This document shows, one piece after another, positions 45,525 to 62,680 of a stretch of DNA of 64,000 nucleotides; position 1 is the stretch's first letter; every line of letters begins with the position of its first letter. The position numbers and the translations under genes were made by a program. Source of the stretch: Candidatus Dormiibacterota bacterium (GTDB lineage: Bacteria > Chloroflexota > Dormibacteria > Aeolococcales > Aeolococcaceae); NCBI GenBank assembly GCA_963777285.1, contig CAVZPR010000002.1, forward strand, positions 338,733 to 402,732, in the 5' to 3' direction. The notes beneath the pieces are model-generated. The model searched no databases. It worked only from the letters and a program-made list of their open reading frames with translations, and was not told the origin of the DNA.

Positions 45525-45546
45525 CCGGGCTGACTGCGAGGTCATC

Positions 45547-45569
45547 GCAGGGCGGGCCGGCCGCCCTGC
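45547..45569. terminator. hairpin GCAGGGCGG-gccgg-CCGCCCTGC between convergent genes
   Basis: 9-bp perfect stem between stop 45524 (+) and stop 45606 (-). Confidence 0.4.
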
Positions 45570-45605
45570 AATGCAACAGAAGTCAGCTGGTGGCGCGGCG
45601 AGCAG

Positions 45606-47438: not shown

Positions 47439-47514
47439 GGGTCTCGTGAGGATGCCACAAACGCAACCTGGCCGCGGTGATGATGCGGCTTCACTCTGCT
47501 AGCGTTTCGTCGCT

Positions 47515-47802
47515 ATGGTGGTCGGCACGCTCATGGTGACGCTGCAGGTACCCGAGAGCGGGTCTCTCAAGGACAAGCGGCAGGTGGTCAGATCGCTGAC
47601 CGCGCGCATCCGGCAGACTTTCAATGTGGCGGTCGCCGAGGTCGGCGACCAGAACCTCTGGCAGTCGGCGGTCATCGGCATCGCCTGCGTGAGCGGCGAC
47701 GGACGCCACGCCGACGAGATGTGCCAGAAGGTGCTGCGCTTCGTCGACGAGCACGGTGACGCGCTGGTGCTCGGCTCGCGTTTCGAGCTGGTGCATGTCT
47801 GA
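47515..47802 (+). CDS. DUF503-family protein
   Basis: MVVGTLMVTLQVPESGSLKDKRQVVRSL...FNVAVAEVGDQNLWQSAVIGIACVS matches DUF503 consensus. Confidence 0.7.
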   Translation: MVVGTLMVTLQVPESGSLKDKRQVVRSLTARIRQTFNVAVAEVGDQNLWQSAVIGIACVSGDGRHADEMCQKVLRFVDEHGDALVLGSRFELVHV

Positions 47803-47835
47803 TCCCGCCGCGTCACGGCACACCGCTGCGGCGGC

Positions 47836-50289: not shown

Positions 50290-51201
50290 ATGTACCACGC
50301 GATCGCCGCGAACCGGCGCAAGAGTGTGCTCGTGATCGTGCTCTTCTTCCTGTTCTGGATCGCCGCGGGCTACGGGATCGGTTACCTGGCCGGCTCCACG
50401 GGCGGCGCGATCAGCGGCGCGATCATCGCCGGCATCCTGGCGCTGCTGGCGGTGCTCTGGGCGCTGACGATGGGGCAGCTCACAGTGCTCGCCGTGTCGG
50501 GAGCGCACCCGATCAGCCAGCAGCAGTATCCGCAGCTGTACGACATCGTTTCGACCCTCACCATCGGCGCCGGGCTGCCGATGCCGAAGATCTACGTTAT
50601 CGACGACCCCTCACCGAACGCGTTCGCCACCGGGCTGCATCCCAAGAACGCAGCCATCACGGTCACCTCTGGGCTACTGCGCATCATGAACCGCGAGGAA
50701 CTCGAGGGCGTGCTCGCGCACGAGATGAGCCACATCCGCAACTACGACGTGCGCCTGGTGCTCATCGTGGGCACGGTGGTGGCGCTGGCCGGCCTTCTCG
50801 CCAGCCTGATGTGGCGCACGCTCTTCTTCACCCGCGTGGGCAACAGCCGCGACGGTGGCTACGCGATCATCATCCTCATCGGCGCGGCGGCGGTGCTTTC
50901 GATCATCGCGGTGCTGGTGGGGCCGATCATGCAGTTCTCGCTGTCACGTTCGCGCGAGTCCCTGGCAGACGCGAGCAGCGTGGAGCTGACGCGCAACCCG
51001 GTGGGGCTCCTGCACGCGCTGCAGAAGATCGCGCAGAACGACAAGCCGTTCGCCAAGATGACGCACGTGACTGCCGCGATGTGCATCGACAATCCGCTGG
51101 AGCATCACTCGGGCTGGTACCACCACCTCTTCGACACACATCCGCCGATCGAGGAGCGCATCGCTGCCCTCGAGCGGATGCTCAACGTCCAGCAGACGTA
51201 A
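50290..51201 (+). CDS. htpX: M48 zinc metalloprotease HtpX
   Basis: HEMSHIRNYD zinc site, 4 TM. Confidence 0.85.
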   Translation: MYHAIAANRRKSVLVIVLFFLFWIAAGYGIGYLAGSTGGAISGAIIAGILALLAVLWALTMGQLTVLAVSGAHPISQQQYPQLYDIVSTLTIGAGLPMPKIYVIDDPSPNAFATGLHPKNAAITVTSGLLRIMNREELEGVLAHEMSHIRNYDVRLVLIVGTVVALAGLLASLMWRTLFFTRVGNSRDGGYAIIILIGAAAVLSIIAVLVGPIMQFSLSRSRESLADASSVELTRNPVGLLHALQKIAQNDKPFAKMTHVTAAMCIDNPLEHHSGWYHHLFDTHPPIEERIAALERMLNVQQT

Positions 51202-51316
51202 CGGGGCCCGCGGGTGGCGCGGAGTGGGCCGGTCTTGGTTTCGAGGGACAGGATGCCCGCGTGGACAGCCGTGCCGTCTCTTGTGCTGCGGCCGCGCAGA
51301 CCGTATTAGATTGGTC

Positions 51317-51799
51317 GGCATGCCAGCTCGGAGCACACGGCGTGAAGAACACGTGATCACCCACCGTACCGGCCTCGATGAGCTGCTGATCAAGGTCCAG
51401 CGACTGCACGGCCGTTCACTTCTTGGCGCGGCAGTAAGCTACGGCGACGAGTTGCATCTCGACCTCTACCGCCGTGGCGTCGGTGGCCGCGAGTACATCC
51501 TGGCTACTAGAGCCTCGCATTGGGAGCTGTGCACGGCTGAGGGCACTCTGATCGTCTCCGCTAACCAACCCAAGTCGACGTGGGTCGCACAGCTTGAGCG
51601 GGCCCTCCAATCGGATTGCATAACCGAGACCCGCATCTTGTTCCCGAGCCTTGGTCTCGAGGTGGCATTTGACGGTCTCCTATTCCGTTTGCTCCCGTCC
51701 TCCGACGACCAACTTGCTCGGTGGGAACTGACTGGACCTGGCGATCAGGAACTCGTGGTGGGGCCCGGAAGCCGGTGGTCTTGGGGTCCGGCAGCGTAG
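51317..51799 (+). CDS. hypothetical protein (island gene; lower GC)
   Basis: ORF in lower-GC DNA; start ambiguous (ATG 51317, alt. GTG upstream). Confidence 0.35.
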   Translation, partial: GMPARSTRREEHVITHRTGLDELLIKVQRLHGRSLLGAAVSYGDELHLDLYRRGVGGREYILATRASHWELCTAEGTLIVSANQPKSTWVAQLERALQSDCITETRILFPSLGLEVAFDGLLFRLLPSSDDQLARWELTGPGDQELVVGPGSRWSWGPAA

Positions 51800-51816
51800 T
51801 CACCACCACGTACTCA

Positions 51817-51842
51817 AGGGTGGTTTGCGGATGCTCGCCTGC
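51817..51842 (+). repeat. island repeat copy A (ggtggtttGCGGATGCTCGCCTGCG)
   Basis: Member of 9-copy direct-repeat family, core GCGGATGCTCGC. Confidence 0.5.
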
Positions 51843-51916
51843 GAGAGGAATCCGTGACCTGACGGGTACTGGAGCGCCACTGTTGAGCCACGAAAGTCTG
51901 CCCAATACTGTCCTCT

Positions 51917-52441
51917 GTGAAGGACGCTAACTCCCACCGGATGCTCCTCAGTTTTCCCGGCGCCGCTTCAGTGCGCCGCCGCGCGGGTGCGCCTCCCCCG
52001 GTGGTGACTGCACGGATTCTCCTCGGATGCCAGGGCGCCCTCCTGCTTTCTACGGCTCTCACCTTGTGGCTCTTCAGTACCACCGCGGCCATGATCGCCC
52101 CGGCGGCGCTTGCGGCGTCGCTCTACAACACGGTCAATCCCGGTGTCATGGCAATCATCGCCGCGTCAATTGTGGTTCCGGTCTTGCTCATAGCGTTTAC
52201 CTTTCGGCGTCGCCCCTGGCCCCCGCTCTCAATCCTCCTTATCGAGTCTTTGTATGTCGCTGTCGACATTGCGTCAGGGTTCGCAGGAGGCGTCGCTCCG
52301 CTAGCGAACGGAGCCGAAGGCGTAGCGCTGTTCCTCATGGCAGGACCGGTTGTACTGGCGGGTATGATCGTCGGCTTCCTGTGGGTGCCAACCGCTTCAC
52401 GGGGTTTCTGCCTCGACAACGCCGCCCGCAACGCCCCCTAA
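51917..52441 (+). CDS. hypothetical membrane protein (4 TM)
   Basis: Hydrophobic segments; island location. Confidence 0.4.
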   Translation: MKDANSHRMLLSFPGAASVRRRAGAPPPVVTARILLGCQGALLLSTALTLWLFSTTAAMIAPAALAASLYNTVNPGVMAIIAASIVVPVLLIAFTFRRRPWPPLSILLIESLYVAVDIASGFAGGVAPLANGAEGVALFLMAGPVVLAGMIVGFLWVPTASRGFCLDNAARNAP

Positions 52442-53409
52442 GACTTGCTAGCAGGAAAGGGACGTCTAACAAGACCGCGGCCTGGATGAGCTTGTTCTTC
52501 CTCCACGGCACCCTCGTTGCTCCTTCCTTACCGCTTCGTTCCACCTAGATCAAACGGCCTTCCTATCCTGGAATGGTGCGAATGCCTCCAGCGAAAAGCT
52601 GCTCTCCGCTCGTCCTGTTTTCGGTGCTCGTCGTGGCGACCGCATGTAGCTCGCCTTCGCGGTCGTCGGTGTCGTCAGGGCCTGCCGGCTTGCCACAGGT
52701 ACCGCTGAGTTCGCACCTTTGCTTGCCTGCCGAGGCCGGAACACGCGGTCCAACCCCTACACCTCAATTGCCGTCGGCTGAAGCTTGCCGCCCCCGGCCC
52801 GCCACGTCTGCGTCAGCCGTCCCTACGCCGCTTCCCTAGCTGCGAGCGGAAGCGTCGGGGGTGGTTTTCGAGTCCGCTGTCGGTTAGCGGCCCGCTCCCG
52901 CGACGGGTACACCCTGAGGAGCTTTCCGTCCGTCCCGTCATCCCCGAGATCGTGTTCATGCCAGAGCAGATAGACGCCCATCCGCTAAAGTTACCCCTCG
53001 GCTGTCCGTCAAGTGGGTATGGCGCACCCTGGCGTGGCCGAGCGGCTGGTCCCGTGCGGCCTTCAGGTCAGCAGCTGGTCGAGGAAATCGCGAAGAGTCG
53101 TCTCCAGTTCGGTCATCTCCTGATTAAGGACCCAACCCTTCCGAAACGTTCGCTTGGCGACTGGGAACTCGTACCAGTCGCAGTCGATCTCGATTCCAAT
53201 GCCGAGCGACCTCGAGGATGCCGTACTCCCGATGACGAAGTCTCAACTCGCAACGTCAAAACGCGATTGATACTCGCCCTGCAGTCGACCCGACAATTCC
53301 GACAACTCCTGCCGAGTGGGAAACCGCGGTCAACGCGTAACGCCCTCACCAGCCAATCCTCTCACGCGCCGATCCTGCTCGCCCCCCGTTCGGGCCACGT
53401 GTGCCGCCC

Positions 53410-53445
53410 GCGACGCTTGGGTCAGGGGTGATTAGCCGATGCCGG
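53410..53445 (+). repeat. island repeat copy B (GCGACGCTTGGGTCAGGGGTGATTAGCCGATGCCGG)
   Basis: Extended ~36-nt match to copies C and H. Confidence 0.6.
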
Positions 53446-53530
53446 CCTGTCCAGGGGTGACTGTGCTGAGCCCGAGGCGCTAAGTGCTGGGGAGGGCCCA
53501 CTGGCGTGCTTAGAGGTCTCTATGACCTGA

Positions 53531-54155
53531 TCAACCGAGTCTGAAGACTGCCGTCGCGGTCTCTACGTCTTGACCCAAACCACGAAATTCGACCGTGGCT
53601 GCGTAGTTGCCTGTGGCAGCACCGGTGGAGTCCCAAGTGCAGTCATACCTCATGGATGCACCTGGCGCCATGCGCTCATCGGAAGGAACAATGCCATCGA
53701 CTGTGCAGGCCTGTATTGGAGAGGCATCGGCGGCGGTAATGAGAAACGTAATCCTCGTAGGGGGCGAGCACCCTGATTCAGAGACGTTCGTAAGAACTCC
53801 GGTCATGCTCACCCGCTGGCCCGATGAGTAGATGCGCTGATCAAAGTTGAGCTCGGCACGAAGGTACGAGGGTGGACAGTTGGCGTAGCCACCCGGCGTC
53901 TCTACTGTCCCGGTGAGCGGAACGGCAGTCGGCGTTGGCGGCGCAGTCGCGGCTGCTGTGGGGGACGGCTCTACAGAGGCCGATATTGCCGGCGACGGGG
54001 GCACCGGAGGGAAGATGCGTCGAGGCGCCCGATCCGGGCGTCGACGAGTTGCAGGCGGCAACCGTGAAGCCAAGCACCGTGGCCACTCCCGTGATCGCCA
54101 CGCCAATCAAGCTCGCAATGAAACGAGAGCGCCACTGCGCGCTCGACGGTTTCAT
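53531..54155 (-). pseudogene. membrane-anchored beta-sandwich-domain protein, paralog of 57627..58226, frame disrupted between TM anchor and linker
   Basis: TM anchor FIASLIGVAITGVATVLGFTVAA in frame of ORF 53841..54155; P/A/T linker + conserved domain (CPPSY...YSSGQRVSMTGVLTN...YDCTWDSTGAATGNYAATVEF) in frame of ORF 53531..54106. Confidence 0.45.
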
Positions 54156-54294
54156 CCTCGAAGCTTACGCTGGCGGCGGTTTCGCGGATCACAACGCCAC
54201 TCGTCTCCGTCCCGCCAAGCTGAAGGCGCCGGGACAAACCACCAGCCGTCAAGTGGAAATTGGCGCATCCTCGCCTGTCCCGCGGTCGCCACCC

Positions 54295-54642
54295 TTACGT
54301 GCTGCCTCCGGAAACCGACCCCAGTGCCGAGAGGATCATCACCAGGTTGCCGGGAACGAGTAGGAACGCGAGAACTGCCACCGCGATAGGCCACCACGAG
54401 CGCATCGAGTGGCGTGCCCGTCTTACACGCCAGACAATCAACGAAGCACATGCAACCTGCGCGCCTCCCCACACGAACCCAACCACGAAAGGCCCCCACA
54501 GCCGTAGCGACATTGGCGCCCAGATCCCTACGACCACAACCACCGTCAGGGCCGAGATCAGCCAGAGCGCAGCAAGAGCGAAGATGGGAGCTTCCATAGC
54601 AAGGACCGACCAACGGGGCGGCCCTTTGACGCGTGGTTGCAT
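54295..54642 (-). CDS. hypothetical membrane protein (paralog of 60156..60636)
   Basis: MQPRVKGPPRW... 3-4 TM; ~70% identical to the 60.3-60.6 kb copy. Confidence 0.45.
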   Translation of the reverse strand: MQPRVKGPPRWSVLAMEAPIFALAALWLISALTVVVVVGIWAPMSLRLWGPFVVGFVWGGAQVACASLIVWRVRRARHSMRSWWPIAVAVLAFLLVPGNLVMILSALGSVSGGST

Positions 54643-54728
54643 TCCCCGAATCTCTGTGCTCTCCCTCGCGTCTGCCCGTGCCGTGCGGGCCTCGTTACCG
54701 GTCACCGGGCTCGCTGTGGGAGAACAAA

Positions 54729-54753
54729 GGTGATGCTTGGATGCTTGCCCGCG
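54729..54753 (+). repeat. island repeat copy I (GGTGATGCTTGGATGCTTGCCCGCG)
   Basis: Degenerate copy. Confidence 0.4.
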
Positions 54754-54952
54754 CCTGAAGGCAGTTCCCGTGCCCGCACGGACATGCGATCTCTTCGCAA
54801 GGTGTGGTCACCCACGGCCGTAGCTGGCGGGTCACCTGGTGCGGGACTTGAGGGGTTGGAGCCAGCCGCGTCGTCCTCGAGCTCGTAGCGAGCAGCGGCG
54901 AGTTGGCGGATTGTCGGCTCCTCGTTCACAGGTACGGGATGACGTCTACTGA

Positions 54953-54994
54953 GCGACCCTTGCTCAGGGGTGATTAGCGGATGCTCGCGTGCGG
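54953..54994 (+). repeat. island repeat copy C (GCGACCCTTGCTCAGGGGTGATTAGCGGATGCTCGCGTGCGG)
   Basis: Best copy; defines consensus. Confidence 0.6.
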
Positions 54995-55037
54995 CGTCTC
55001 GATGTGCGCCGGTGCCGGTTGGTAGGTGGACTTCGCC

Positions 55038-55442
55038 TCAGGACATGCGCCGGCGCCGTCTCCGTTTGCGACGGTGGGGCGGCTGGACTGCCCTGGTAGT
55101 CAGCGGCGATGCGTCTACAAGGCCGGCCGCCTCAAATGCACCCGGCTCCTCCATCCAGCTACGTGCCGGCCGCTCGTCGTTGTGATGGCGGCGCCGCTGG
55201 TCTTGCGCTAGTCGATGGCTGGCTTCGCGCCGCGCTTCCTCGGCTGGACTAACTATGAACTGTGGCAGGTAGGGCGGCTCGTCAGCCCCGGCGCCAATAG
55301 GCCCAACTCCGTCAGGGTATGGCCTGTTCGTCCCAATGGCGGGTTCTTTGTTGGGACGTCCCCTGAACCCATACCAGAACAGGCCGAGCAGGCAAGCCGT
55401 CAAGATCCCAATCGTCACCAGAATCGGTACCACGTCTGACAT
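55038..55442 (-). CDS. hypothetical membrane protein with basic C-terminal tail
   Basis: N-terminal TM VVPILVTIGILTACLLGLFWY; poly-Arg tail. Confidence 0.3.
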   Translation of the reverse strand: MSDVVPILVTIGILTACLLGLFWYGFRGRPNKEPAIGTNRPYPDGVGPIGAGADEPPYLPQFIVSPAEEARREASHRLAQDQRRRHHNDERPARSWMEEPGAFEAAGLVDASPLTTRAVQPPHRRKRRRRRRMS

Positions 55443-55511
55443 CGTTCCACTGACCGCCGGTGCTCGTCAAACGCCGTTTTCGGGGTAGGCCGCCCCTGCA
55501 CGTCGCGTAGA

Positions 55512-55530
55512 CACTGGCGGATGCTGGGGT
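55512..55530 (+). repeat. island repeat copy D (cactgGCGGATGCTGGGGT)
   Basis: Core-only copy, immediately upstream of the doc module. Confidence 0.4.
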
Positions 55531-55632
55531 GGGCGCCCGACGCTACCCCTCACCGACATCGCCCGATGCCTCGACGACTGCTCCCCACCGACCGTCACCG
55601 GGACGCGGGGGAAGCAGTAAAATCATCACGAC

Positions 55633-55806
55633 GTGATTCGCGATCTCCATCGCCAAGCGGCCCCGCGGCGAAGCGATGTCGCCACGGTGACATCCTCACA
55701 GCTCCGGAAGCGCGTAAGCGCCACGATCCGGCGGGTTGCGCGCGAGGACCGGAGCATATTGAAGGCGCTTGCCGCCTTCGACCGTGGCGAGCGCCCAGCC
55801 GACTGA
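55633..55806 (+). CDS. putative Phd/YefM-like antitoxin partner of Doc (tentative)
   Basis: Small ORF directly upstream of and overlapping doc; TVTSSQLRKRVSATIRRVAREDRS resembles antitoxin N-termini. Confidence 0.3.
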   Translation: MIRDLHRQAAPRRSDVATVTSSQLRKRVSATIRRVAREDRSILKALAAFDRGERPAD

Positions 55807-56209
55807 GCCGGTCTATTACCTGACGTCAGCGGACTTGGTGCGCTGCCATGCGGCGGCCCTGGAGATCGCGGAATCGACGGCGCGGCATCACGTGTTGCAC
55901 CGCGACGGGCTTCTTTCCGCCCTCGAGCGACCGCGCTGGCACGCTCATTACCGCAAGTCCGATCTGATCGACCAGGCGGCCGTACTCGCCGAGGGTCTGG
56001 TGGCCAGCCACGCATGGGTGGATGGGAACAAACGCACGACATGGGTGGCGGTGCGAACGTTTCTCGATGTGAACAGGCTTCGCTGGCTCAAGGCGCCGGA
56101 CGTCGTTGACGTTGTCGCGCAGCTGACCGGGCTGACCACGCGACGAATCAAGGGTCCAGAGTTTGCGACCTGGTTGCGCCCGCGGCTGCACTTAGCGGGG
56201 CGACGGTAG
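55784..56209 (+). CDS. Doc (death-on-curing) / Fic-family toxin
   Basis: Fic motif variant HAWVDGNKRTTWVAVRTFL (HxxxDGNKR); size ~140 aa. Confidence 0.65.
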   Translation: MASAQPTEPVYYLTSADLVRCHAAALEIAESTARHHVLHRDGLLSALERPRWHAHYRKSDLIDQAAVLAEGLVASHAWVDGNKRTTWVAVRTFLDVNRLRWLKAPDVVDVVAQLTGLTTRRIKGPEFATWLRPRLHLAGRR

Positions 56210-56674
56210 ATAAGCGTCGGCGTACATTCACGAATACTCGCCTGCCCGACCAGCGACTACGTCGGCGCTGATGCGCACGTTCGATGGCCGTTCGTCCTAT
56301 TCGCGCTGTGATCTGCGCTGGGTGTGAAATTGAAGGTGGCCCGGTAGTCGCCGTTTTCTGTGCGGTAGCCGGAGTTGCACTCGGTAGCCGTCAAACGCCA
56401 GTGTCCGTCACCATCGGCGCACCATGCGCACTAGCAGCCTGTTCGCCCAACATCGAGCAGGTGTCACCGGTGTCACGCTTCACCGCCAAGATCGGCACAT
56501 CCATGCCGCCGGCGCTTCGCGTGGCGCTGGAGTCGCGCTCTGACAACCCGGCGGCGGTGCTGCAACCGGGGCGTGGCCTGGCCCACCCGGCAGTGCAGTG
56601 GGCTGCTCGGCGACGCGTGCCATCTCAGCGCCATGCGCATTGCCCAACCCTGGCTGCGCGATTAGGGCGAGTGC

Positions 56675-57097
56675 GTGCCTCAGCTCGACGACATCGGAGC
56701 GGCCGAGAGGCGTTACCGTAGCTCGGTGGACCAGGAGCGGCGAAACTCGGGCCTTGCGCATGAACATGTCCGTCGGGCGCTGATCGAGAAGCGAGCCGAA
56801 CTGCTCGCGAAGGTGGAGCAGCTAGGTGCCCACGACCCCGCGGAGGCGTCGAATCTCAACTTCGGCAAGCGCATCGGCGACGGGACCAGCTATGCCGTGG
56901 AGCGCATGACCGGCGCGTACCACGCACGCACTCTGTACGAGACGGTCCGAGAGATCGAAAGCTCGCTCGTTCGCTTAGACGAGGGCACGTACGGGCTGTG
57001 CGCCTCATGCGGCAAGCCGATTCCCACGGCGCGCCTCGACTTGGTCCCGTGGGCAGCGCTCTGCGTCCCGTGCAGTGCGCCAGCACGCCGCCGATGA
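56675..57097 (+). CDS. TraR/DksA-family C4 zinc-finger protein
   Basis: C-terminal CASCGKPIPTARLDLVPWAALCVPC. Confidence 0.65.
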   Translation: MPQLDDIGAAERRYRSSVDQERRNSGLAHEHVRRALIEKRAELLAKVEQLGAHDPAEASNLNFGKRIGDGTSYAVERMTGAYHARTLYETVREIESSLVRLDEGTYGLCASCGKPIPTARLDLVPWAALCVPCSAPARRR

Positions 57098-57202
57098 GCC
57101 GCGCCGGCCGCTTCGGACGGCGGCGAAAGCCCGCGTGCTGCGAACTGCGCCCGCGAGGCTCCCGATGGCTCTGCGACGGCCGCGTCCCGGTTCGCTTGCC
57201 CG

Positions 57203-57228
57203 GAGGTGACTTGCGGATGCACGCGTGC
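57203..57228 (+). repeat. island repeat copy E (gaGGTGAcTTGCGGATGCACGCGTGC)
   Basis: Copy upstream of intact beta-sandwich paralog. Confidence 0.45.
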
Positions 57229-57626
57229 TCAGCGCCTCTCTGCTCGCGCGAGAATAACGATCCCGTGACACAGAGGCCCTAGGAGTGACCGCTGCGGAGG
57301 GAAACCCACCCGAGACCGTCGAGCGCACCGAGTCCCTTCGTCGCATCCTTGATCCGCTCCGTGCGCAGCTGGGGCAGATCCCTGGATGCAACAGCAACGG
57401 CATCGGATTGACCGCCGCCGCCTTCGTTCGACTAAGGTCGAGTGGCGGAGAGCCCGAAAGCGTCAGGCCCGACGACACGGTAATCACCGTGGGCTTCGAG
57501 ACCGAGGAGTACCTGGATGCGGGCCGCGCCCGCGTTGACGAGATCCTTGGTGACGTGCCTCACGAATGCAAGGTGAGTGGCCGAATCGTTCTCCTGTGAC
57601 CCCGCAGGTCGTGCTAACGTCGGCCC

Positions 57627-58226
57627 GTGCGCTGGCGCAAATGGGACAGGGCCGCGGTAGGACTCGGCGTGGTCGCGGCCGTGCTGGTAGTGATGTTGGT
57701 CGTCTTCGCGCGCGAGCACGCTCCTGCGACGACCGATGCTCACGCCACGGCAGCGGCGAACGCAGCTGCCGCGATCGCGGGTGCAGCGTCACCATCCGCC
57801 GTCCCTTCAGAGCCAGCCATGCCTTCGTCCACCCCGACGCGCTCGTCGGGTCCCGTTACTGTGAATGGATACGTCCTTTGCCCTGCGTCATACTTCAGCG
57901 CCACCCTCACTATTGGTCGGGCGAGCTACGCCTCTGGTCAAACGATAACCATGACGAGCGCTCTCACCAATTCGTCCACCACTTCTTGTTCCGGGCTGAC
58001 TGAATTCCGATTCCTGATCACGGTTTCCGCCGGCTCCCCACGCACTGCATGTTCAGAAGGGGGTCTGGTACCGCCTCACACGTATGTAGCTCCGGGCGCG
58101 TCGCAATCGTACGACTGCAGCTGGGATTCGACAGGAGCTCCAACCGGTCGATACACTGCCACCGTGCAATTCGTCGATCAGCAAGACGACACTGCGGACG
58201 CCACTGCTACGTTCGCCATCACCTGA
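57627..58226 (+). CDS. membrane-anchored beta-sandwich-domain protein (intact paralog of 53531..54155)
   Basis: TM AAVGLGVVAAVLVVMLVVFA, A/P-rich linker, domain CPASYFSATLTIGRASYASGQTITMTSALTN...YDCSWDSTGAPTGRYTATVQF. Confidence 0.5.
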   Translation: MRWRKWDRAAVGLGVVAAVLVVMLVVFAREHAPATTDAHATAAANAAAAIAGAASPSAVPSEPAMPSSTPTRSSGPVTVNGYVLCPASYFSATLTIGRASYASGQTITMTSALTNSSTTSCSGLTEFRFLITVSAGSPRTACSEGGLVPPHTYVAPGASQSYDCSWDSTGAPTGRYTATVQFVDQQDDTADATATFAIT

Positions 58227-58280
58227 GCCGGCACCGGCGACAGCCTTTCTCGACGGCCGATGACGTCGGCTATCGGTACA

Positions 58281-58300
58281 CTTGGGGATGCTCGCCTCGG
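58281..58300 (+). repeat. island repeat copy F (cttgGGGATGCTCGCCTCGG)
   Basis: Core-only copy, 3' of beta-sandwich paralog. Confidence 0.4.
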
Positions 58301-58409
58301 TGACAGGGCGAAGTCCGCAGGCCCATTCGGCTTTGCTCATCCTTGCTTGCGACGGTCGCTGGGTCGTCGCTGCGAGCAGTCTTGCCGAAGCCTATAAGCT
58401 CTCGCCTCG

Positions 58410-58640
58410 ATGACGAGCCATCCGGACAACCCGCCGGCGCCACCCGGCGGTGCATGCCTGGGATGCGGCGCGCCGGTGGTGAGCCTGGGCGTCGCGAACT
58501 TCCGCATCGGTGGAACGCGGGGTGGTGCAAAGCTTGTGTTCGGCGAACTGGCGGAGCTCGGTGAGGAAATGCTGACGATGGAGGTGCTGGCCTGCCGGGA
58601 GTGCTGGCGCGTCGAACTCCGGATCCCTCGCGACGCTTGA
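58410..58640 (+). CDS. small zinc-ribbon protein
   Basis: CLGCG...CRECW pairs; 76 aa. Confidence 0.35.
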   Translation: MTSHPDNPPAPPGGACLGCGAPVVSLGVANFRIGGTRGGAKLVFGELAELGEEMLTMEVLACRECWRVELRIPRDA

Positions 58641-58833
58641 TCTCTCAGTCGACGCCGTCGGGCGACGATTGCCTAAAGCGATCATTTGCAGCACCCGCCG
58701 ACTGCATTCGGGTCGAAGTCCCCGGGAATCACAGTGGCGCAACACCGCTACCGCAGCCCGCTGGACTCATCCCATCCCGCGGTCTTGGCATGCCCGCCCG
58801 TAACGACGCCACGCTTCCATCGTTCGATCGAAT

Positions 58834-59376
58834 GTGCAGGTACGCGTTGGACTGGCCGCTATTGGGCTCTCGGTCGTTCTTGCCGCCTGCGGAGGCCGTG
58901 GTGCCGCCGCAGGCGACCGGCTCAGCCCGTCTGCGACGCCTGTCCCCGCGACCGACTCGCCCGCGCCGAAGTCGTCAACACCGCCCACGTTCCCGCCATG
59001 CGCGCCCGTGGTAACCGCCACGCCAGGTCTCGATGACGGCAGCGTCCAGGTGGGCCCTGACTCTTGGGACGATTTTCAAACGTCGAATCAGTGGCGCGGG
59101 CCGATGAACGGATCGAACACGCGCTGGTACCACGTCTACGCGGGAATGACCGGCGACGCCGCGAACCCGCCACGTGTGCCGGCGGTTTGGGTCGACGTGA
59201 CAACGGTCACCCCTGATCGTTGCACCATCGACGTCAGGACGGTCGGCGACTTCACGGACCGCGACGCCGGTGGCGCCCTGAGGATCACGGCCGTTGACGG
59301 GTCGGTGGTCCACCTTCAGGCCACCTCAGGTCGCCGCCTCGCATTCGATCTTTCGACCGACCGGTTCACGGGCTGA
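58834..59376 (+). CDS. lipoprotein, unknown function
   Basis: Lipobox VVLAACGG; Pro/Thr-rich linker then folded domain. Confidence 0.5.
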   Translation: MQVRVGLAAIGLSVVLAACGGRGAAAGDRLSPSATPVPATDSPAPKSSTPPTFPPCAPVVTATPGLDDGSVQVGPDSWDDFQTSNQWRGPMNGSNTRWYHVYAGMTGDAANPPRVPAVWVDVTTVTPDRCTIDVRTVGDFTDRDAGGALRITAVDGSVVHLQATSGRRLAFDLSTDRFTG

Positions 59377-59418
59377 CCGACCGCCACGAAAAGGCGTGCG
59401 GATGGTGGTCTGCCGAAG

Positions 59419-59991
59419 TCACCCTTCGCCCGAGCCTCGTTTCGGCGGGTACGCGACTAACCTCAGCGCCTCTTGTGTTCGCTGTAGGTGTAACTCTGAC
59501 GGTTCGCTACCAGCAGCGATCGCCTGTTGGAACCGATCCGCCGAGGCTTCCAGCGACTGCTCCGCCCGGTAGCGGTGAAGCCATCCGAGAAAATGAGCAG
59601 CGGGCCCATACCCCGAGTCGGCAAGCGCCGACAGCGCAGCGTACCCGCTCTTCACGTCACCCGCCCTGATGCTGTCGAGTGCGCCTTGCATGTCGTCTTC
59701 GAGCTTCGGCGCCTCGGATCCGTAGCGATCCAGCCAGGCCATGAGAACGGCAGCCGGGCGCGATCCCCCTCCGGCGAGCGCCTCCAAGTGCGACCGCCCG
59801 CTCGCCAGATCGCCGCGGCGAACCTCAGCGAGGGCCTCACGGATCCCGTGGTCGACGGGCGTTTTCTCGACGTTTCCGGCCGAGCTCCGCAGCCGCTCAG
59901 CGGCTAGCCGCCATTCCTCGTCTACGGTGGTCAACTCTCGCACCTGGTCGCCGCATCCTAGCTGCACCTGATCCACCCGTCGAGTAGACAT
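59419..59991 (-). CDS. Sel1-like repeat protein
   Basis: Tandem repeats GDLASGRSHLEALAGGGSRPAAVLMAWLDRYG / GDVKSGYAALSALADSGYGPAAHFLGWLHRYR; ATG 59991. Confidence 0.5.
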   Translation of the reverse strand: MSTRRVDQVQLGCGDQVRELTTVDEEWRLAAERLRSSAGNVEKTPVDHGIREALAEVRRGDLASGRSHLEALAGGGSRPAAVLMAWLDRYGSEAPKLEDDMQGALDSIRAGDVKSGYAALSALADSGYGPAAHFLGWLHRYRAEQSLEASADRFQQAIAAGSEPSELHLQRTQEALRLVAYPPKRGSGEG

Positions 59992-60058
59992 TCGCGGACG
60001 CTGGCCTGGCCAAGACCCGTCGGCCCTGCGGGCGCAGGACTGAGCGGGGCGCGCTCTT

Positions 60059-60280
60059 TCAATGCAGGACCGCCGCAACGACAAGACCGGCGACAATGCC
60101 AATGACGCAGTAAGCGACTATGACCAGGTTGACGGCGTGGCGTATGCGGGCCCTCTCAGCCACCGACCGAGCTGGGTCCCGCCATGGGGCGTTCGGCCTG
60201 AGCCGCAGATAGAGGTAGCCCACGGTACCAACGACCACCGCCGCGAACGGACCCGAAGCCGCGATTAGGACGAAGCGCAC
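60059..60280 (-). CDS. small membrane protein (2 TM)
   Basis: 73 aa hydrophobic ORF. Confidence 0.3.
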   Translation of the reverse strand: MRFVLIAASGPFAAVVVGTVGYLYLRLRPNAPWRDPARSVAERARIRHAVNLVIVAYCVIGIVAGLVVAAVLH

Positions 60281-60636
60281 GCACGATCCTCGCGTTCGCC
60301 TCGATCGAGCGCCACCCGAGCGTCAAGACGATCATCATCAGATTGCCCGGGATAAGCAGAAACGCGAGAACCGCGACCGCCACTGGCCACCATGAGCGCA
60401 TGGGATGCAGTGCGCGTCGCAGTCGCCAGGCACAAACCCAGCGAACGCGATCTGCACGCCCCCCACACGAACCCAACCAAGAAAGGCCCCCAGACCCGTA
60501 GCACTACCGGCGCCCAGATCCCTTCGACTACAACCACCGTCAGTGCTGTCATCAGCCACAGCGCAGGAAGTGCGAAAACGGCTAATCCGGTAGCAACAGC
60601 CGACCAGGTGCGTGGTCCTTGGGCCCGCGGCTGCAT
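60156..60636 (-). pseudogene. frameshifted paralog of membrane protein 54295..54642
   Basis: N-part MQPRAQGPRTWSAVATGLAVFALPALWLMTALTVVVVEGIWAPVVLRVWGPFLVGFVWG in ORF 60265..60636; C-part HPMRSWWPVAVAVLAFLLIPGNLMMIVLTLG in ORF 60156..60476. Confidence 0.4.
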
Positions 60637-60715
60637 TCCCCAAATCTATGGCCGCTTCGTGCCCTGCCCCCTTTCCGTGCTGGCCTCGTTACCCGCCTGC
60701 GGGGTCGCTGTCGCT

Positions 60716-60738
60716 GGGGGTGATCGCGGATGCTGGCA
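60716..60738 (+). repeat. island repeat copy G (GGGGGTGATCGCGGATGCTGGCA)
   Basis: Copy. Confidence 0.5.
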
Positions 60739-60812
60739 CGGCCCAGAGCTCCGTCACATGGGCGCGACGGGGCCGCATCTTTGGGCGCACTCGCCAGCGT
60801 TAGCCTCGGCAG

Positions 60813-61181
60813 GTGCGCCGACAGACCGGGAGAGCGGCCCGACTGATTGCGCTGTCGGTCGTTACGATCTCAGCCATAGCCTGTGGATCGAGTCCAGAGC
60901 CATCGCGATCGACCGCGCGTTCTCTGCAATCTTTGCTTGACGGTTTAAGCGGGACTTGCGCGCAGGTCGGGACGCCCGTAGCGTCTCCGACACCATGCCC
61001 GCCTGTTGTACCGAGTGCTTCGGCGCAGTCCTCTCCTGGGATGCCGCCCCCGCGACACCCTTACGCTGAGATTGCGCCCTGCCAGGCCGGCCCTTCGGGG
61101 GTGATTGGCGGATGCTGGCCTCATCCACCGACCTCGCCCCGCGATCTACCCGAGCGTGTCGGCCTCCAACCGATCGAGTAA
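60813..61181 (+). CDS. small lipoprotein; C-terminal region encoded by a copy of the island repeat
   Basis: Lipobox ISAIACGSS; Cys/Pro-rich C-half ...APCQAGPSGVIGGCWPHPP. Confidence 0.4.
   Translation: MRRQTGRAARLIALSVVTISAIACGSSPEPSRSTARSLQSLLDGLSGTCAQVGTPVASPTPCPPVVPSASAQSSPGMPPPRHPYAEIAPCQAGPSGVIGGCWPHPPTSPRDLPERVGLQPIE
61052..61120 (+). repeat. island repeat copy H (GCGACACCCTT...CGGGGGTGATTGGCGGATGCTGGCC, with internal insertion)
   Basis: Last copy at island 3' edge; extended left arm GCGACaCCCTT matches B and C. Confidence 0.5.
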
Positions 61182-61412
61182 ACCGCGCGCCATCGTTCGC
61201 ACCTCACTCGACGACTTCTCATCTGCCGCGACGAGGGACGCGAGCTCCTGAGCCTGCTTGAGCAGGTCAGCAATGACGTCCGGGTCCTGATCAGCCCATC
61301 CACCGGAGGCCAGGAACCGCATGGCCGCGCCCGCCTTCGCTTTTCGGTCCGGCATCCCCGCGAGCCTAGCACCCTCTGGAGCCCGCCGCCGAGATGGTTG
61401 CAGACGCATCAC
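61146..61412 (-). CDS. hypothetical small protein
   Basis: 88-aa ORF, GC3 back to high. Confidence 0.3.
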   Translation of the reverse strand: MMRLQPSRRRAPEGARLAGMPDRKAKAGAAMRFLASGGWADQDPDVIADLLKQAQELASLVAADEKSSSEVRTMARGLLDRLEADTLG

Positions 61413-61444
61413 GTGATACCTGGGTCCAGCCCTTCAGGTCCAAT

Positions 61445-61837
61445 TCAACGTTGATACGAGCCAGGAATCCATGCGCGCGTAGCCACGCCCACCATGTTCC
61501 AAGCGTTGATCATGACGAGCAGAGAGACCAGCGCCGCGACTTCATCGGGACTGAACGCCGCAGCGACATCATCGTAAGCCGCGTCGGGCACATGCGTCTG
61601 CGCCACCCGGGTCAGACACTCGGTGAATGCGAGAGCCGCACGCTCGCGCCCTGTGAAGAACGGCGTCTCGCGCCATACGGGCAAAGCATATATGCGCTGC
61701 TCCGTCTCACCAATCGCCCGCGCGTCCTTGGTGTGCATGTCGACACAGTAGGCGCACCCGTTCAGTTGGGAGGCGCGGATGCGCACCAGCTCGCGCAGCT
61801 TGGGATCGAAACCGACGTCGTCGAGCTGCCGCGCCAT
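61445..61837 (-). CDS. carboxymuconolactone decarboxylase-family protein (AhpD-like)
   Basis: CxxC/His motif NGCAYCVDMHTK. Confidence 0.75.
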   Translation of the reverse strand: MARQLDDVGFDPKLRELVRIRASQLNGCAYCVDMHTKDARAIGETEQRIYALPVWRETPFFTGRERAALAFTECLTRVAQTHVPDAAYDDVAAAFSPDEVAALVSLLVMINAWNMVGVATRAWIPGSYQR

Positions 61838-61981
61838 GGCGTGGTCGAGGTGCGCCAGAGCCGGAGAAGGCGGCGGCGTGGCTGTCGAAATCGAGGCGGA
61901 CAGGGATCTCGGCGATCGCCGACGGGTCTTTCATGGTCACAAGGTTACGAGCGTCGCCTTGCCCCGGCTCAGCGGTCTGTC

Positions 61982-62680
61982 TCAGCCGCTGAAGCGGTAG
62001 CCGATGCCCGGCACGGAATGGATGTACGTCGGCTTTTCCGCATCCGGCTCGATCTTCCGCCGCAGCCTGTACACGTGCGCATCCACCGTGCGCGTTTCGA
62101 TCTCCACCTCGTAGCCCCACACGCGACGCAGCAGCTCACCGCGGCTCATCACCTGCCCGGGGCGTGACGCCAGCAGCGCCAGCAGGTTGAACTCGGTGAG
62201 CGTGAGCAGCACCTCCTCGCCGTCGCGAAACACCTGGCGCCGGCCGAGGTCTATCGTGAGTCCAGGAAACTCGAATCGGTCCCGCGGCTGCTCCTGCGAC
62301 GAGATCTCGCTGCGGCGCAGGTGCGCGCCGACACGCGCCATCAGCTCGCGAACCTCGAAGGGCTTGGTCACGTAGTCATCCGCGCCCAGCTCCAACCCGA
62401 CCACGACGTCGATGGTGTCGGACTTTGCGGTGAGCATGATGATGGGCACGCGCGCGCCCTCGGCGCGCAGACGGCGGCACACGTCGAGGCCGCTCATGCC
62501 GGGAAGGTTGACGTCGAGAATGATGAGATCGGGACTCTGCTCGCGCGCCAGGGTGAGTCCGTCGACGCCGGTCGCGGCTTCCAGCAGCGTGTGGTTCTGC
62601 GCGCTGCACGCCAGACGCACCACCTCGCGGCTGGGGGCGTCGTCTTCGACGATGAGTATGGTCTTGCCGGCGCCACTCAT
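61982..62680 (-). CDS. OmpR-family response regulator
   Basis: REC (LIILDVNLPGMSG; TAKSDTIDVV) + winged helix (GIGYRFSG). Confidence 0.85.
   Translation of the reverse strand: MSGAGKTILIVEDDAPSREVVRLACSAQNHTLLEAATGVDGLTLAREQSPDLIILDVNLPGMSGLDVCRRLRAEGARVPIIMLTAKSDTIDVVVGLELGADDYVTKPFEVRELMARVGAHLRRSEISSQEQPRDRFEFPGLTIDLGRRQVFRDGEEVLLTLTEFNLLALLASRPGQVMSRGELLRRVWGYEVEIETRTVDAHVYRLRRKIEPDAEKPTYIHSVPGIGYRFSG

What the first reader, a model, noticed from the sequence alone, without database searches (positions are those of the whole stretch)
51205..61420. ~10-kb lower-GC island after htpX with duplicated gene modules, a toxin and a private repeat family
GC content and codon usage change abruptly right after the htpX stop. 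Island genes use many A/T-ending codons (e.g. 51.3-52.0 kb, 53.1-53.5 kb, 56.2-56.4 kb), whereas flanking genes are ~70% GC with strong GC3. The island holds a Doc/Fic toxin, a TraR/DksA zinc finger, a Sel1-repeat protein, lipoproteins and small membrane proteins. It also holds two sets of paralogs, each with one disrupted copy, and nine copies of a ~25-40 bp repeat found nowhere else in the 64 kb. Together this looks like horizontally acquired or rapidly turning-over accessory DNA that includes an uncharacterised repeated element. No integrase, transposase, tRNA or CRISPR array is visible, so the mobility mechanism is unknown.
Basis: partly seen in the sequence, partly recalled or inferred. 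Interest (0 to 1): 0.8.

Follow-up and report, generated by a model that had tools for sequence, protein, structure and literature searches.

The report
Repeat-delimited gene-cassette island after htpX
A 10.7-kb stretch of accessory DNA in an uncultured soil bacterium (Dormibacterota) is divided into about a dozen one-gene modules by a previously undescribed 28-base repeat that always points the same way, which looks like an integron-style gene-capture array built on a different kind of site.

Summary
GC drops from 0.698 to 0.647, and GC3 from 0.87-0.92 to 0.61-0.79, exactly at the htpX stop. GC3 recovers at about 61.9 kb, not 61.42 kb. Doc/Fic, TraR/DksA, both paralog pairs (each with one frameshifted copy) and the absence of integrase, tRNA and CRISPR are confirmed. 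Sel1 is not.

The window comes from a Dormibacterota genome. None of 80 related loci carries the island after htpX, and that position is variable in the phylum; one relative has integrases and phage genes there.

The "private repeat" is real and more extensive than reported: 10 clear and about 4-5 degenerate copies, all on the + strand and none elsewhere in the window. Most intergenic gaps hold one, whichever strand the genes are on. The core is TCARGGGTGA|TTnGCGGATGCTSGCSTG. The same family forms co-oriented arrays in soil and peat metagenome contigs. There, homology between contigs breaks at the repeat, and one module encodes a WapI-like immunity protein. The repeat has no hairpin, no attC cores and no Rfam match.

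Best reading (about 0.5): an integron-like or rAID-like cassette array using a non-attC site, with the recombinase unseen. Rivals are a regulatory site or a selfish intergenic repeat.

The parts
51205..61900 (.). Low-GC3 accessory island, running from the htpX stop to just before the OmpR-type response regulator.
   Evidence: GC 0.647 against 0.698. GC3 0.61-0.79 against 0.87-0.92. Absent after htpX in 80 related loci.
51238..51268 (+). Degenerate repeat copy 36 nt after the htpX stop (TCGAGGGACA--GGATGCCCGCGTGG).
   Evidence: Read from the sequence. Weak nhmmer hit at 51251-51266.
51814..51841 (+). Repeat copy (TCAAGGGTGGTTTGCGGATGCTCGCCTG).
   Evidence: score 24 of 28.
53422..53449 (+). Repeat copy.
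54249..54277 (+). Repeat copy, 5' subtype B-like (TCAAGTGGAAATTGGCGCATCCTCGCCTG), between the two '-' strand genes 53531-54155 and 54295-54705.
   Evidence: score 18.
54725..54749 (+). Repeat copy.
54964..54991 (+). Repeat copy, closest to the consensus.
55515..55525 (+). Partial repeat copy (TGGCGGATGCT) upstream of the Phd-like/Doc module.
   Evidence: A weak call on its own.
56226..56244 (+). Degenerate subtype-B repeat copy (GTACATTCACGAATACTCGCCTG), 17 nt after the doc stop.
57205..57227 (+). Repeat copy.
58282..58297 (+). Partial repeat copy (right half only).
59990..60008 (+). Degenerate repeat copy next to the start of 59419-59991(-).
60718..60737 (+). Repeat copy with a 1-nt deletion. 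It is part of the duplicated segment shared with 54725-54749.
61099..61121 (+). Repeat copy.
51320..51799 (+). Module 1: ORFan of 159 aa.
   Evidence: No Pfam, PHROG or PADLOC hit. No word-index homologue, with a caveat on that search. The AF2 model is unusable, pLDDT 37.
51941..52441 (+). ORF for a small multi-pass membrane protein.
   Evidence: Translation. No family hit.
52573..52839 (+). Short lipoprotein-like ORF (lipobox ..ATAC), Pro-rich, possibly a fragment.
   Evidence: Translation.
52952..53431 (.). Stretch with ambiguous coding. It is either a 159-aa + ORF or a '-' strand pseudogene with one in-frame stop (..EIDCDWYEFPVAKRTFRKGWVLNQEMTELETTLRDFLDQLLT*).
   Evidence: Six-frame translation.
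53531..54155 (-). Frameshifted paralog of 57627-58226. The lipoprotein signal is in one frame and the Ig-like domain in another.
54295..54705 (-). Intact small membrane protein (136 aa), paralog of 60156-60636.
55038..55442 (-). ORFan with an N-terminal transmembrane helix (134 aa).
55633..55806 (+). 57-aa ORF overlapping the doc start. It is Phd/YefM-like by eye and probably a truncated antitoxin.
   Evidence: Read from the sequence. No Pfham-level support: no Pfam hit. Its 3' part was also called as a gene in the independent assembly L104.
55784..56209 (+). Doc/Fic toxin.
   Evidence: Pfam Fic, E = 1e-9. Called as 141 aa in L104.
56382..56671 (+). metF remnant: start region 56382-56447 plus 3' end 56470-56671, with about 620 nt deleted internally.
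   Evidence: 83-92% nt identity to the metF of metagenome contig L098.
56675..57097 (+). TraR/DksA zinc-finger protein.
   Evidence: Pfam. Homologues at 60-87% identity are widespread in Dormibacterota, in varied contexts.
57285..57599 (+). ORFan of 104 aa.
57627..58226 (+). Membrane-anchored protein with a rare Ig-like domain (intact paralog).
   Evidence: 17 hits among 1.84 billion representatives. Some are 5-6 thousand aa proteins holding 10-22 copies of the domain. Weak BsuPI and DUF4232 hits.
58410..58640 (+). 76-aa ORF with two CxxC pairs.
58834..59376 (+). Lipoprotein ORFan of 180 aa.
59419..59991 (-).
   Evidence: No Sel1 or TPR hit at E <= 5.
60059..60280 (-). 73-aa two-helix membrane ORF.
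60156..60636 (-). Frameshifted paralog of 54295-54705 (two 1-nt deletions).
60813..61181 (+). Lipoprotein-like, Pro-rich ORF (122 aa).
61146..61412 (-). ORFan of 88 aa.
61445..61837 (-). Carboxymuconolactone decarboxylase (AhpD-like) family gene. It is the last gene with island-type GC3 (0.75).
   Evidence: Pfam CMD, E = 3.5e-22. GC3.

Best explanation
The island is an array of about 12-14 small gene modules, mostly one gene or one gene pair each. I think it accreted next to htpX by recombination at a 28-nt asymmetric site, TCARGGGTGA|TTnGCGGATGCTSGCSTG. One copy of the site sits at each module boundary, and all copies point the same way regardless of the strand of the enclosed genes. In architecture it works like an integron cassette array or a Bacteroidales rAID-1 array. 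Modules drawn from a Dormibacterota-wide pool of lower GC3 are inserted, duplicated, shuffled and left to decay. The site is not an attC, and the enzyme that uses it is not encoded in the 64 kb. It would have to act in trans or lie beyond the window.

Shown: the compositional break; absence from relatives; the repeat family, its co-orientation and its restriction to the island; roughly one repeat per gene; the same family in arrays in other contigs; homology breakpoints at the repeat.

Inferred: that the repeat is a recombination site, that modules move as units, and that a dedicated recombinase exists.
For: 1. Orientation. All 14 consensus hits in the island are on the + strand and none on the - strand, while 12-13 genes are + and about 10 are - (binomial p about 1e-4). 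The repeat occurs in same-same, opposite-opposite, divergent and convergent intergenic gaps. This argues for a DNA-level signal set by the array, not a gene-expression signal.

2. Restriction. There is no credible copy in the other 53 kb of the window or in 80 related genome loci.

3. Wider family. A metagenome scan found about 15 contigs of GC 0.62-0.67 that match the full profile. Arrays are co-oriented in 7 of 9 multi-copy sequences: L101 with 6-7 copies all +, L095 with 3 all -, L082 with 3 all +. They separate small low-GC3 ORFs on either strand.

4. Breakpoints. L099 and L101 are 98.5% identical over 199 nt up to the 3' end of the repeat and unrelated beyond it. The L101 membrane-protein module (5356-5840) is homologous to a gene in a complete Dormibacterota chromosome (L107). 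That homology starts 20 nt after one repeat and stops exactly at GGGTGA|T of the next. In L107 the left half (TCAAGGGTGA, which includes the stop codon) is present but the conserved right half is absent.

5. Duplication. Within the window, the duplicated unit 54318-54759 / 60314-60745 is a gene plus its repeat.

6. Content typical of cassette arrays. ORFans with no Pfam, PHROG or PADLOC hit; a Doc toxin module; paralogs; pseudogenes. In L095 a WapI-like immunity gene (E = 6.5e-31) is flanked by repeats on both sides.

7. Information content is continuous over about 24 nt rather than bipartite. No sigma-70-like promoter coincides with the repeat.
Against: No recombinase of any kind is in the island or the window. 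None sits next to the arrays in the metagenome contigs except IS110-family transposases in two of them, 1-4 kb away.

The site has no dyad symmetry, which is unusual for tyrosine or serine recombinase core sites. No excised circle, empty site in a close strain, or identical module in two arrays bounded by repeats on both sides was observed. The metF remnant shares with L098 only the gene plus about 45 nt upstream, not a whole repeat-to-repeat unit.

Single copies also occur between core-like genes (L092, L098). Some modules hold 2-3 genes. Several repeat copies are degenerate and rest on weak scores. The closest genomes available are only 82-84% identical in HtpX, so presence/absence polymorphism within the species is untested.
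Confidence: 0.5

Rival explanations
1. The repeat is a cis-regulatory protein-binding site, such as an operator or 'stoperator', a promoter for an alternative sigma factor or a phage-type RNA polymerase, or an RNA-level signal. On this view it is kept by selection in every module of a co-regulated accessory region, and recombination at it is incidental.
For: When a co-oriented gene follows, it starts a fairly constant 70-130 nt downstream. Window examples are 51814 to 51941, 57205 to 57285 and 60718 to 60813. Other examples are L101 5306 to 5414, L101 6350 to 6446, L087 2085 to 2156 and L098 to metF. Single copies lie between co-oriented core-like genes in L092 and L098. The continuous conservation over about 24 nt resembles single-subunit RNA polymerase promoters. 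An OmpR-type regulator and a kinase flank the island, and the core contains TGGCG-N5-TGGCG in many copies.
Against: About half the copies are followed by the 3' end of an opposite-strand gene, so they would drive antisense transcription. In L095 and L082 all copies are antisense to the genes. Orientation follows the array, not the genes. There is no -35/-10 or -24/-12 pattern and no RNA structure (z from -1.2 to +1.3). There is no Rfam hit. No polymerase or sigma gene is in the island. A regulatory site does not explain homology breaking exactly at the repeat.
Confidence: 0.2
2. The repeat is a selfish miniature element, REP- or MITE-like or the end of an IS-type element. It would be mobilised in trans into a preferred target (..TCAAGGGTGA) and accumulate where insertions are tolerated, that is in dispensable DNA.
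For: The L107 versus L101 comparison looks like an empty and an occupied target: TCAAGGGTGA followed by native sequence in one, and by TTAGCGGATGC.. in the other. The left half is more variable, with two subtypes, than the right half, as expected for a target plus an element end. IS110-family transposases, which are known (from my background knowledge) to target repeats, occur in 2 of about 16 repeat-bearing contigs. Solo copies exist in core-like contexts.
Against: There is no hairpin or palindrome and no inverted-pair (REPIN-like) arrangement, and folding is no better than shuffled or random sequence. No conserved second end is seen. A 19-28-nt unit is shorter than known MITEs. There are zero copies in about 45 core intergenic regions of the window against roughly one per gene in the island. 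Strict co-orientation over 10 kb is not expected from independent insertions. No Y1/HUH or DDE transposase was seen.
Confidence: 0.2
3. The region is simply a decaying prophage, integrative element or ancestral segment. Low GC3 reflects relaxed selection, and the short repeats have no role.
For: There are at least four pseudogenes or remnants: 53531-54155, 60156-60636, the metF remnant and a truncated Phd-like ORF. In relative L015 the same position holds phage and integrase genes.
Against: No PHROG, integrase or phage hit in any island ORF. The repeat enrichment is far beyond chance (p = 2e-8) and the 28-nt core is conserved across unrelated contigs from different samples. Decay alone cannot create or maintain that. 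Intact ORFs with a coding-type GC1/GC2/GC3 pattern remain.
Confidence: 0.07

Closest known systems
Integron gene-cassette arrays, in particular integrase-less clusters (CALINs) and sedentary chromosomal integrons. The comparison rests on my background knowledge of the integron literature. attC features are as described in PMC2727003 and PMC3053210, which were listed but not read.
   Same: A co-oriented recombination-type repeat sits at each module boundary. Modules are small and mostly single-gene. Most genes are ORFans. A toxin-antitoxin module, duplicated cassettes and pseudogenes are present. Composition differs from the host. Gene strand within a module is free while site orientation is fixed. 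No integrase is adjacent, as in CALINs.
   Different: The repeat is a 28-nt conserved, asymmetric sequence. It has no R''/R' cores (0 candidates). It has no bottom-strand hairpin (MFE -21.1 against -21.5 kcal/mol for random island windows; z about 0). It is far shorter than the 55-141 nt of an attC. No IntI is present. The phylum has no reported integrons (nothing found).
rAID-1, the recombinase-associated acquired interbacterial defence clusters of Bacteroidales (Ross et al., bioRxiv 10.1101/471110).
   Same: [quoted passage not shown] A related array (L095) carries a WapI-like immunity gene between two repeats. The window holds many small membrane, lipoprotein and helical-repeat ORFs of the sort often used as immunity proteins (my inference).
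   Different: No XerD-family recombinase heads the array. No window ORF matches a known immunity family. Genes lie on both strands. The phylum and the repeat sequence are different.
REP/BIME elements and their RAYT transposases (background knowledge).
   Same: Both are short (20-40 nt) intergenic repeats present in many copies without flanking homology.
   Different: This repeat has no palindrome or GTAG-type head, is confined to the island, is strictly co-oriented and has no RAYT nearby.
Stoperators of cluster A mycobacteriophages, which are asymmetric repressor sites scattered through intergenic regions (background knowledge).
   Same: Both are asymmetric, multi-copy intergenic sites confined to a piece of mobile DNA.
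   Different: Stoperator orientation follows transcription, whereas here orientation ignores gene strand. No phage genes or repressor were identified.
Classical genomic island: tRNA- or gene-end-targeted, with an integrase and flanking direct repeats.
   Same: Insertion lies immediately after a conserved gene. Composition is atypical. The island is absent from relatives. The position is a hotspot that holds integrases in L015.
   Different: No integrase, no tRNA and no pair of flanking att repeats. Instead there is an internal repeat at every module.

Membership tests
Integron / CALIN | attC sites: an imperfect inverted repeat with RYYYAAC ... GTTRRRY cores, 55-141 nt long. | tested here: not met
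   0 R''..R' pairs on either strand of the island; shuffles average 0.7.
Integron / CALIN | attC folds as a single-stranded hairpin. | tested here: not met
   RNA-fold z-scores from -1.2 to +1.3 for 7 copies. Bottom-strand DNA MFE around the repeats equals that of random island windows.
Integron / CALIN | IntI tyrosine recombinase adjacent (complete integron only). | tested here: not met
   No Phage_integrase domain in island or flank ORFs. No Xer-like tblastn hit in the window.
Integron / CALIN | At least 2 co-oriented sites less than 4 kb apart that delimit promoterless single-gene cassettes. | tested here: inconclusive
   The architecture is met, with 10-14 co-oriented sites 0.24-1.7 kb apart, but the site is not an attC. 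Promoter status is unknown.
rAID-1 (Bacteroidales) | A conserved XerD-family recombinase at the head of the array. | tested here: not met
rAID-1 (Bacteroidales) | Repetitive intergenic sequences and skewed GC. | tested here: met
rAID-1 (Bacteroidales) | The array genes are orphan immunity genes. | tested here: inconclusive
   One WapI-like immunity module in the related array L095. No window ORF hits an immunity family.
REP/RAYT elements | A palindromic stem-loop with a conserved head, dispersed genome-wide and often in inverted pairs. | tested here: not met
   No structure. No copies outside the island in 53 kb. All copies co-oriented.
Classical integrase-mediated genomic island | An integrase gene, and flanking direct repeats at a tRNA or gene end. 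| tested here: not met
   No integrase. No tRNA. No long flanking direct repeat.
Classical integrase-mediated genomic island | Atypical composition and absence from related genomes. | tested here: met
   The relatives are at genus level or more distant (HtpX at most 84% identical).
Phd/Doc type II toxin-antitoxin | A Doc toxin with a Fic fold. | tested here: met
   PF02661, E = 1e-9.
Phd/Doc type II toxin-antitoxin | An upstream, overlapping Phd/YefM antitoxin. | tested here: inconclusive
   A 57-aa ORF overlaps the doc start and looks Phd-like by eye but has no Pfam hit. It appears truncated.
   No such hit at E <= 5 or E <= 0.01.
Known structured RNA or Rfam family (for the repeat) | A match to a covariance model. 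| tested here: not met
   No hit at the repeats at E <= 1 in the window or E <= 0.1 in 7 related loci.

The most novel reading that the evidence does not exclude
Dormibacterota, and perhaps other soil lineages, possess a gene-capture system analogous to integrons but mechanistically distinct. It would use a 28-nt asymmetric double-strand site (left half TCARGGGTGA, right half TTnGCGGATGCTSGCSTG) and a still unidentified recombinase encoded in trans. It would assemble single-gene modules into co-oriented arrays beside conserved genes. The modules would include immunity-type and toxin-antitoxin genes, and even captured housekeeping genes such as metF or traR.
Probability: 0.3. Interest if true: 0.85.

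Novelty: new variant of a known kind. Interest (0 to 1): 0.62.

Why it matters
Integrons are the textbook system for capturing and stockpiling single genes. Only a few analogues are known, such as rAID-1 in gut Bacteroidales. If confirmed, this would be a cassette array built on a different, unstructured site, in a phylum known only from metagenomes. It would show that modular gene capture has arisen more than once. It would supply a simple sequence tag for mining the accessory gene pool of Dormibacterota from soil and permafrost metagenomes. It would also point to an unknown recombinase with a 28-nt asymmetric target.

The L101/L107 pair is worth particular attention. A native gene ends in the left half-site in one genome, and the same gene is followed by the full site inside an array in another. 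That could make the unsolved question of how cassettes are born directly testable. Even on the modest reading, the island documents a recurrent insertion hotspot after htpX in this phylum.

Tried and rejected
1. Shine-Dalgarno plus start codon. The left half is complementary to the 16S 3' end and an ATG follows 8 nt later, giving tiny 'MLAC..' ORFs. Rejected: the peptides are not conserved beyond 4 codons, and subtype-B copies (GGTACATT, GCGACATT) lack the SD.

2. C-terminal coding remnant on the minus strand (..ASANHP*). Rejected: no consistent ORF or start.

3. Small hairpin after GGATGC (CTSGC-N4-GSSAG). Most TGGC copies have a G-G mismatch and no fold is significant.

4. attC. Rejected.

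5. Rfam families. Nothing found.

6. Sigma-54 (-24/-12) and sigma-70 patterns. The spacing does not fit and no site coincides with the repeat.

7. Phage or prophage origin. There were no relevant viral-contig matches: and the one hit, L102, is a 19-mer chance match in 55% GC DNA. There were no PHROG hits.

8. Known defence systems. No PADLOC hit apart from a marginal one for Doc.

It returned nothing, but it probably saturated the 8000-candidate word filter, so I do not treat it as proof of ORFan status. The later exhaustive search for one domain did find 17 distant relatives.

10. Extending the window. Exact-protein look-ups found only two short Logan contigs of the same strain, L103 and L104. 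The 1.42-Mb NCBI contig that holds the identical TraR (P0001) could not be fetched.

11. TraR neighbours in relatives (L105, L106, L112, L113). No repeats and no shared context.

12. AlphaFold on 51320-51796 without an alignment. pLDDT was 37, so it is unusable, and I ran no fold search.

13. The four 48-50% GC contigs (L081, L084, L090, L091) that match the 21-mer. They are one conserved purF-pyrG intergenic region of an unrelated organism, treated as a chance match.

14. Literature search for the repeat sequence. No relevant paper found.

Full report
ORGANISM AND CONTEXT

HtpX (50290-51201; Peptidase_M48) is 72-84% identical to HtpX of Candidatus Dormibacterota MAGs. Identity to Actinomycetota is much lower. 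The genes upstream are a TPR protein, a ParA-like ATPase, an acyl-CoA synthetase, DUF503 and a DEAD/DSHCT helicase. They are syntenic in 23-29 of the Dormibacterota loci I fetched. So the window is a Dormibacterota chromosome segment with a conserved left flank.

Yes.
- GC is 0.698 for 1-51204 and 0.647 for 51205-61900 (p = 5e-6 on 1-kb windows).
- GC3 is 0.61-0.79 in 17 island ORFs and 0.87-0.92 in 8 flanking genes, with no overlap (p = 2e-6).
- The change is abrupt at the htpX stop.
- On the right, the CMD-family gene 61445-61837 still has island-type GC3 (0.75). The OmpR-type regulator (61982-62680) and the hybrid kinase (62677-63990) are host-like.

Doc/Fic and TraR/DksA are confirmed by Pfam. 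Sel1 is not: there is no hit even at E <= 5.

Both paralog sets are real, and each has one broken copy.
- 54318-54717 and 60314-60711 are 75% identical. The second copy has two 1-nt deletions.
- 53531-54155(-) is a frameshifted copy of 57627-58226(+).

There is no tRNA and no tandem or CRISPR array. No island ORF has an integrase or transposase domain. Nothing in the 64 kb looks Xer-like or IS110-like.

An independent short-read assembly (Logan, ERR11594400) contains 55719-59004 at 99.94% identity and 46538-48078 at 100%. That part of the island is therefore not an artefact of one assembly.

IS IT ACCESSORY DNA?

- No island ORF occurs within 10 kb downstream of htpX in any of 80 related loci. 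Neither does the RR/HK pair to its right.
- The relatives show no GC dip after htpX.
- In the relatives, a conserved ~166-aa gene follows htpX after a spacer of 0 to 5.3 kb, depending on the genome. That gene is missing from the window. The position after htpX is thus a variable spot in the phylum.
- In L015 (palsa_851 MAG) the spot holds two tandem tyrosine recombinases, a tape-measure gene and a serine recombinase. It is a recurrent integration hotspot.

One caveat applies. The nearest genomes available are only genus-level relatives, so polymorphism among close strains is untested.

CONTENT OF THE ISLAND

Apart from Doc, TraR and CMD, the ORFs have no Pfam, PHROG or PADLOC match.

The domain of 57627-58226 has only 17 relatives among 1.84 billion representative proteins. 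Several of these are 5-6 thousand aa proteins with 10-22 copies of the domain. It is therefore a rare Ig-like adhesin-type repeat.

TraR is not foreign to the phylum. Homologues at 60-87% identity are common in Dormibacterota, each in a different, core-like context.

Between doc and traR lies a metF remnant (56382-56447 plus 56470-56671). It is 83-92% identical in DNA to the metF of metagenome contig L098 and has about 620 nt deleted.

The island therefore mixes ORFans with genes typical of the phylum, and several are decayed.

THE REPEAT

A profile built from the six clear copies puts its nine best window hits inside the island, all on the + strand. A consensus scan gives 14 hits on the island + strand, 0 on the island - strand and 19 in the remaining 53 kb on both strands. 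About 1.9 would be expected per island strand (p = 2e-8).

Including degenerate copies read directly from the sequence, a repeat lies:
- 36 nt after the htpX stop (51238-51268);
- in most intergenic gaps after that, among them 54249-54277 between the two '-' strand genes.

The island thus divides into about 12-14 modules, mostly of one gene or one gene pair (Phd-like/Doc; metF remnant/TraR). Gene strand varies (12-13 on +, about 10 on -), but repeat orientation never does.

The repeat has no significant fold and no attC cores or hairpin. It has no Rfam match, and no sigma-70-like promoter coincides with it.

THE REPEAT FAMILY ELSEWHERE

I scanned the metagenome collection once for an exact 21-mer of the repeat. 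It returned 21 contigs, and about 15 of them (GC 0.62-0.67, soil and peat) match the whole profile.

From 33 distinct copies the core is TCArGGG[T/A][G/C]ATTnGCGGATGCT[G/C]GC[C/G]TG.
- The right half is almost invariant.
- The left half is more variable and has two subtypes: GGGTGATT, and GGTACATT or GCGACATT.
- There is no homology outside the core.

Copies are co-oriented within 7 of the 9 sequences that carry more than one: L101 (6-7 copies), L095 (3), L082 (3), L087, L094, L086 and the window. They separate small low-GC3 ORFs on either strand.

These contigs are Dormibacterota. The L101 membrane protein has a 72% homologue in the complete chromosome OY970307. L098 shares the metF sequence with the window.

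One module, L095 720-1250, has a repeat on each side and encodes a WapI-like immunity protein (E = 6.5e-31). Another ORF is DUF6000. Two contigs carry IS110-family transposases.

EVIDENCE THAT THE REPEAT MARKS RECOMBINATION JOINTS

a) L099 and L101 are 98.5% identical over 199 nt that end at the 3' edge of the repeat. Beyond it they are unrelated.

b) L101 5356-5840 (a membrane-protein gene plus 57 nt upstream) is homologous to L107 9944-10427. In L101 this segment begins 20 nt after one repeat and ends exactly at GGGTGA|T of the next. In L107 the gene ends ..ATTCAAGGGTGA and is followed by unrelated sequence and a tRNA, with no right half-site. This places the joint between the left and right halves. 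It also looks like a native gene end that matches the left half-site.

c) In the window, the duplicated unit of the membrane-protein paralogs is a gene plus its repeat.

INTERPRETATION

The explanation that covers the most observations is a cassette array that grows and shuffles by recombination at this site. The observations are co-orientation independent of gene strand, roughly one site per gene, restriction to the island, breakpoints at the site, ORFan/TA/paralog/pseudogene content, and a shared composition lower in GC3 than the host. In architecture it matches integron arrays. [quoted passage not shown]

It is not a member of either family.
- attC features were tested and not met.
- No recombinase is adjacent.
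- Only one related module, not in the window, is a recognised immunity gene.

The enzyme and the reaction are inferred, not shown. I put this reading at about 0.5.

The rivals are:
- a regulatory site (0.2). It is favoured by the fairly constant 70-130 nt distance to co-oriented downstream genes and by solo copies between core-like genes in L092 and L098. It is disfavoured by the many antisense placements.
- a selfish miniature element that targets TCAAGGGTGA (0.2). It is favoured by the L107/L101 'empty/occupied' picture. It is disfavoured by the lack of structure or a second end, the strict co-orientation and the confinement to the island.
- plain decay of an old element (0.07). It cannot explain a 28-nt core conserved across samples.

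NOVELTY AND SCORE

I found no description of this repeat in Rfam, or by a full-text search for the sequence. I also found no report of integron-like arrays in Dormibacterota.

I rate it a new variant of a known kind: repeat-delimited gene-cassette arrays. Interest is 0.62. It is a clear, testable lead in an uncultured phylum, but it rests on sequence architecture alone, with no enzyme identified and only distant genomes for comparison.

Noticed in passing
window 56382-56671 (+): Remnant of a methylenetetrahydrofolate reductase gene (metF) between doc and traR. The start region and the 3' end are retained, and about 620 nt are deleted internally. It is 83-92% identical in DNA to the metF of metagenome contig L098.
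   Followed up: yes
L098 1689-4111: tRNA-Pro(GGG) at 1689-1765, with a 57-nt direct repeat of its 3' part at 4055-4111. Together they bracket a 2.3-kb islet that holds metF, one copy of the repeat and a Pro-rich membrane protein. This is the signature of an integrated element without an integrase.
   Followed up: partly
L015 11324-18689 (Dormibacterota MAG palsa_851, just downstream of htpX): Two tandem tyrosine recombinases, a phage tape-measure gene and a serine recombinase occupy the same post-htpX position as the island. The GC there falls to 0.58-0.65.
   Followed up: partly
L001-L032, downstream of htpX: The spacer between htpX and a conserved ~166-aa gene (which is also conserved in Actinomycetota loci) varies from 0 to 5.3 kb among Dormibacterota. 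In L007 the spacer genes have homologues at window 551-3615, at 47-57% aa identity.
   Followed up: partly
L107 10380-10640 versus L101 5800-5860: In a complete Dormibacterota chromosome, a membrane-protein gene ends in ..TTCAAGGGTGA, identical to the left half of the repeat, but the right half does not follow. It could be a natural target or the raw material of a cassette.
   Followed up: partly
L083 1579-2619; L099 4636-5007: IS110-family (DEDD) transposase genes lie 1-4 kb from repeat copies in two of about 16 repeat-bearing contigs. It is not known whether they relate to the repeat.
   Followed up: no
window 57849-58223: The Ig-like domain of the paralog pair is very rare: 17 hits among 1.84 billion representatives. 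It nonetheless occurs as 10-22 tandem copies in giant proteins of 5,000-6,400 aa.
   Followed up: partly
window 62677-63990 (-): The hybrid histidine kinase ORF begins in the middle of a GAF domain (profile positions 86-129 at residues 2-45). Its N-terminus is therefore cut off by an upstream stop or frameshift close to the end of the window.
   Followed up: no
window 44000-45750: A second, milder GC dip (0.63-0.66) lies around the ParA-like gene. GC3 there stays high (0.87-0.88) and the gene is syntenic in relatives, so it is not an island.
   Followed up: partly
L081, L084, L090, L091 (for example L084 7335-7358): Four contigs of 48-50% GC from one unrelated organism carry a match of 26 nt or more to the repeat (GGGGTGATTAGCGGATGCTGGCACGG). 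It lies in the purF-pyrG intergenic region. I treated it as a chance match, but the shared ..GCTGGCACGG tail with window copy 60718-60745 is unexplained.
   Followed up: partly
L099 1-103: The contig end is an inverted duplication of its own neighbouring sequence. It gives a spurious mir-191 Rfam hit and is probably an assembly artefact.
   Followed up: no
L107 5100-9900: Upstream of the membrane-protein gene in chromosome OY970307 there is a 5-kb run of small unannotated ORFs, a WYL regulator, a Clp_N protein and a DinB-like gene. GC there is 0.63-0.65, against 0.67-0.70 nearby. It contains no copy of the repeat.
   Followed up: no
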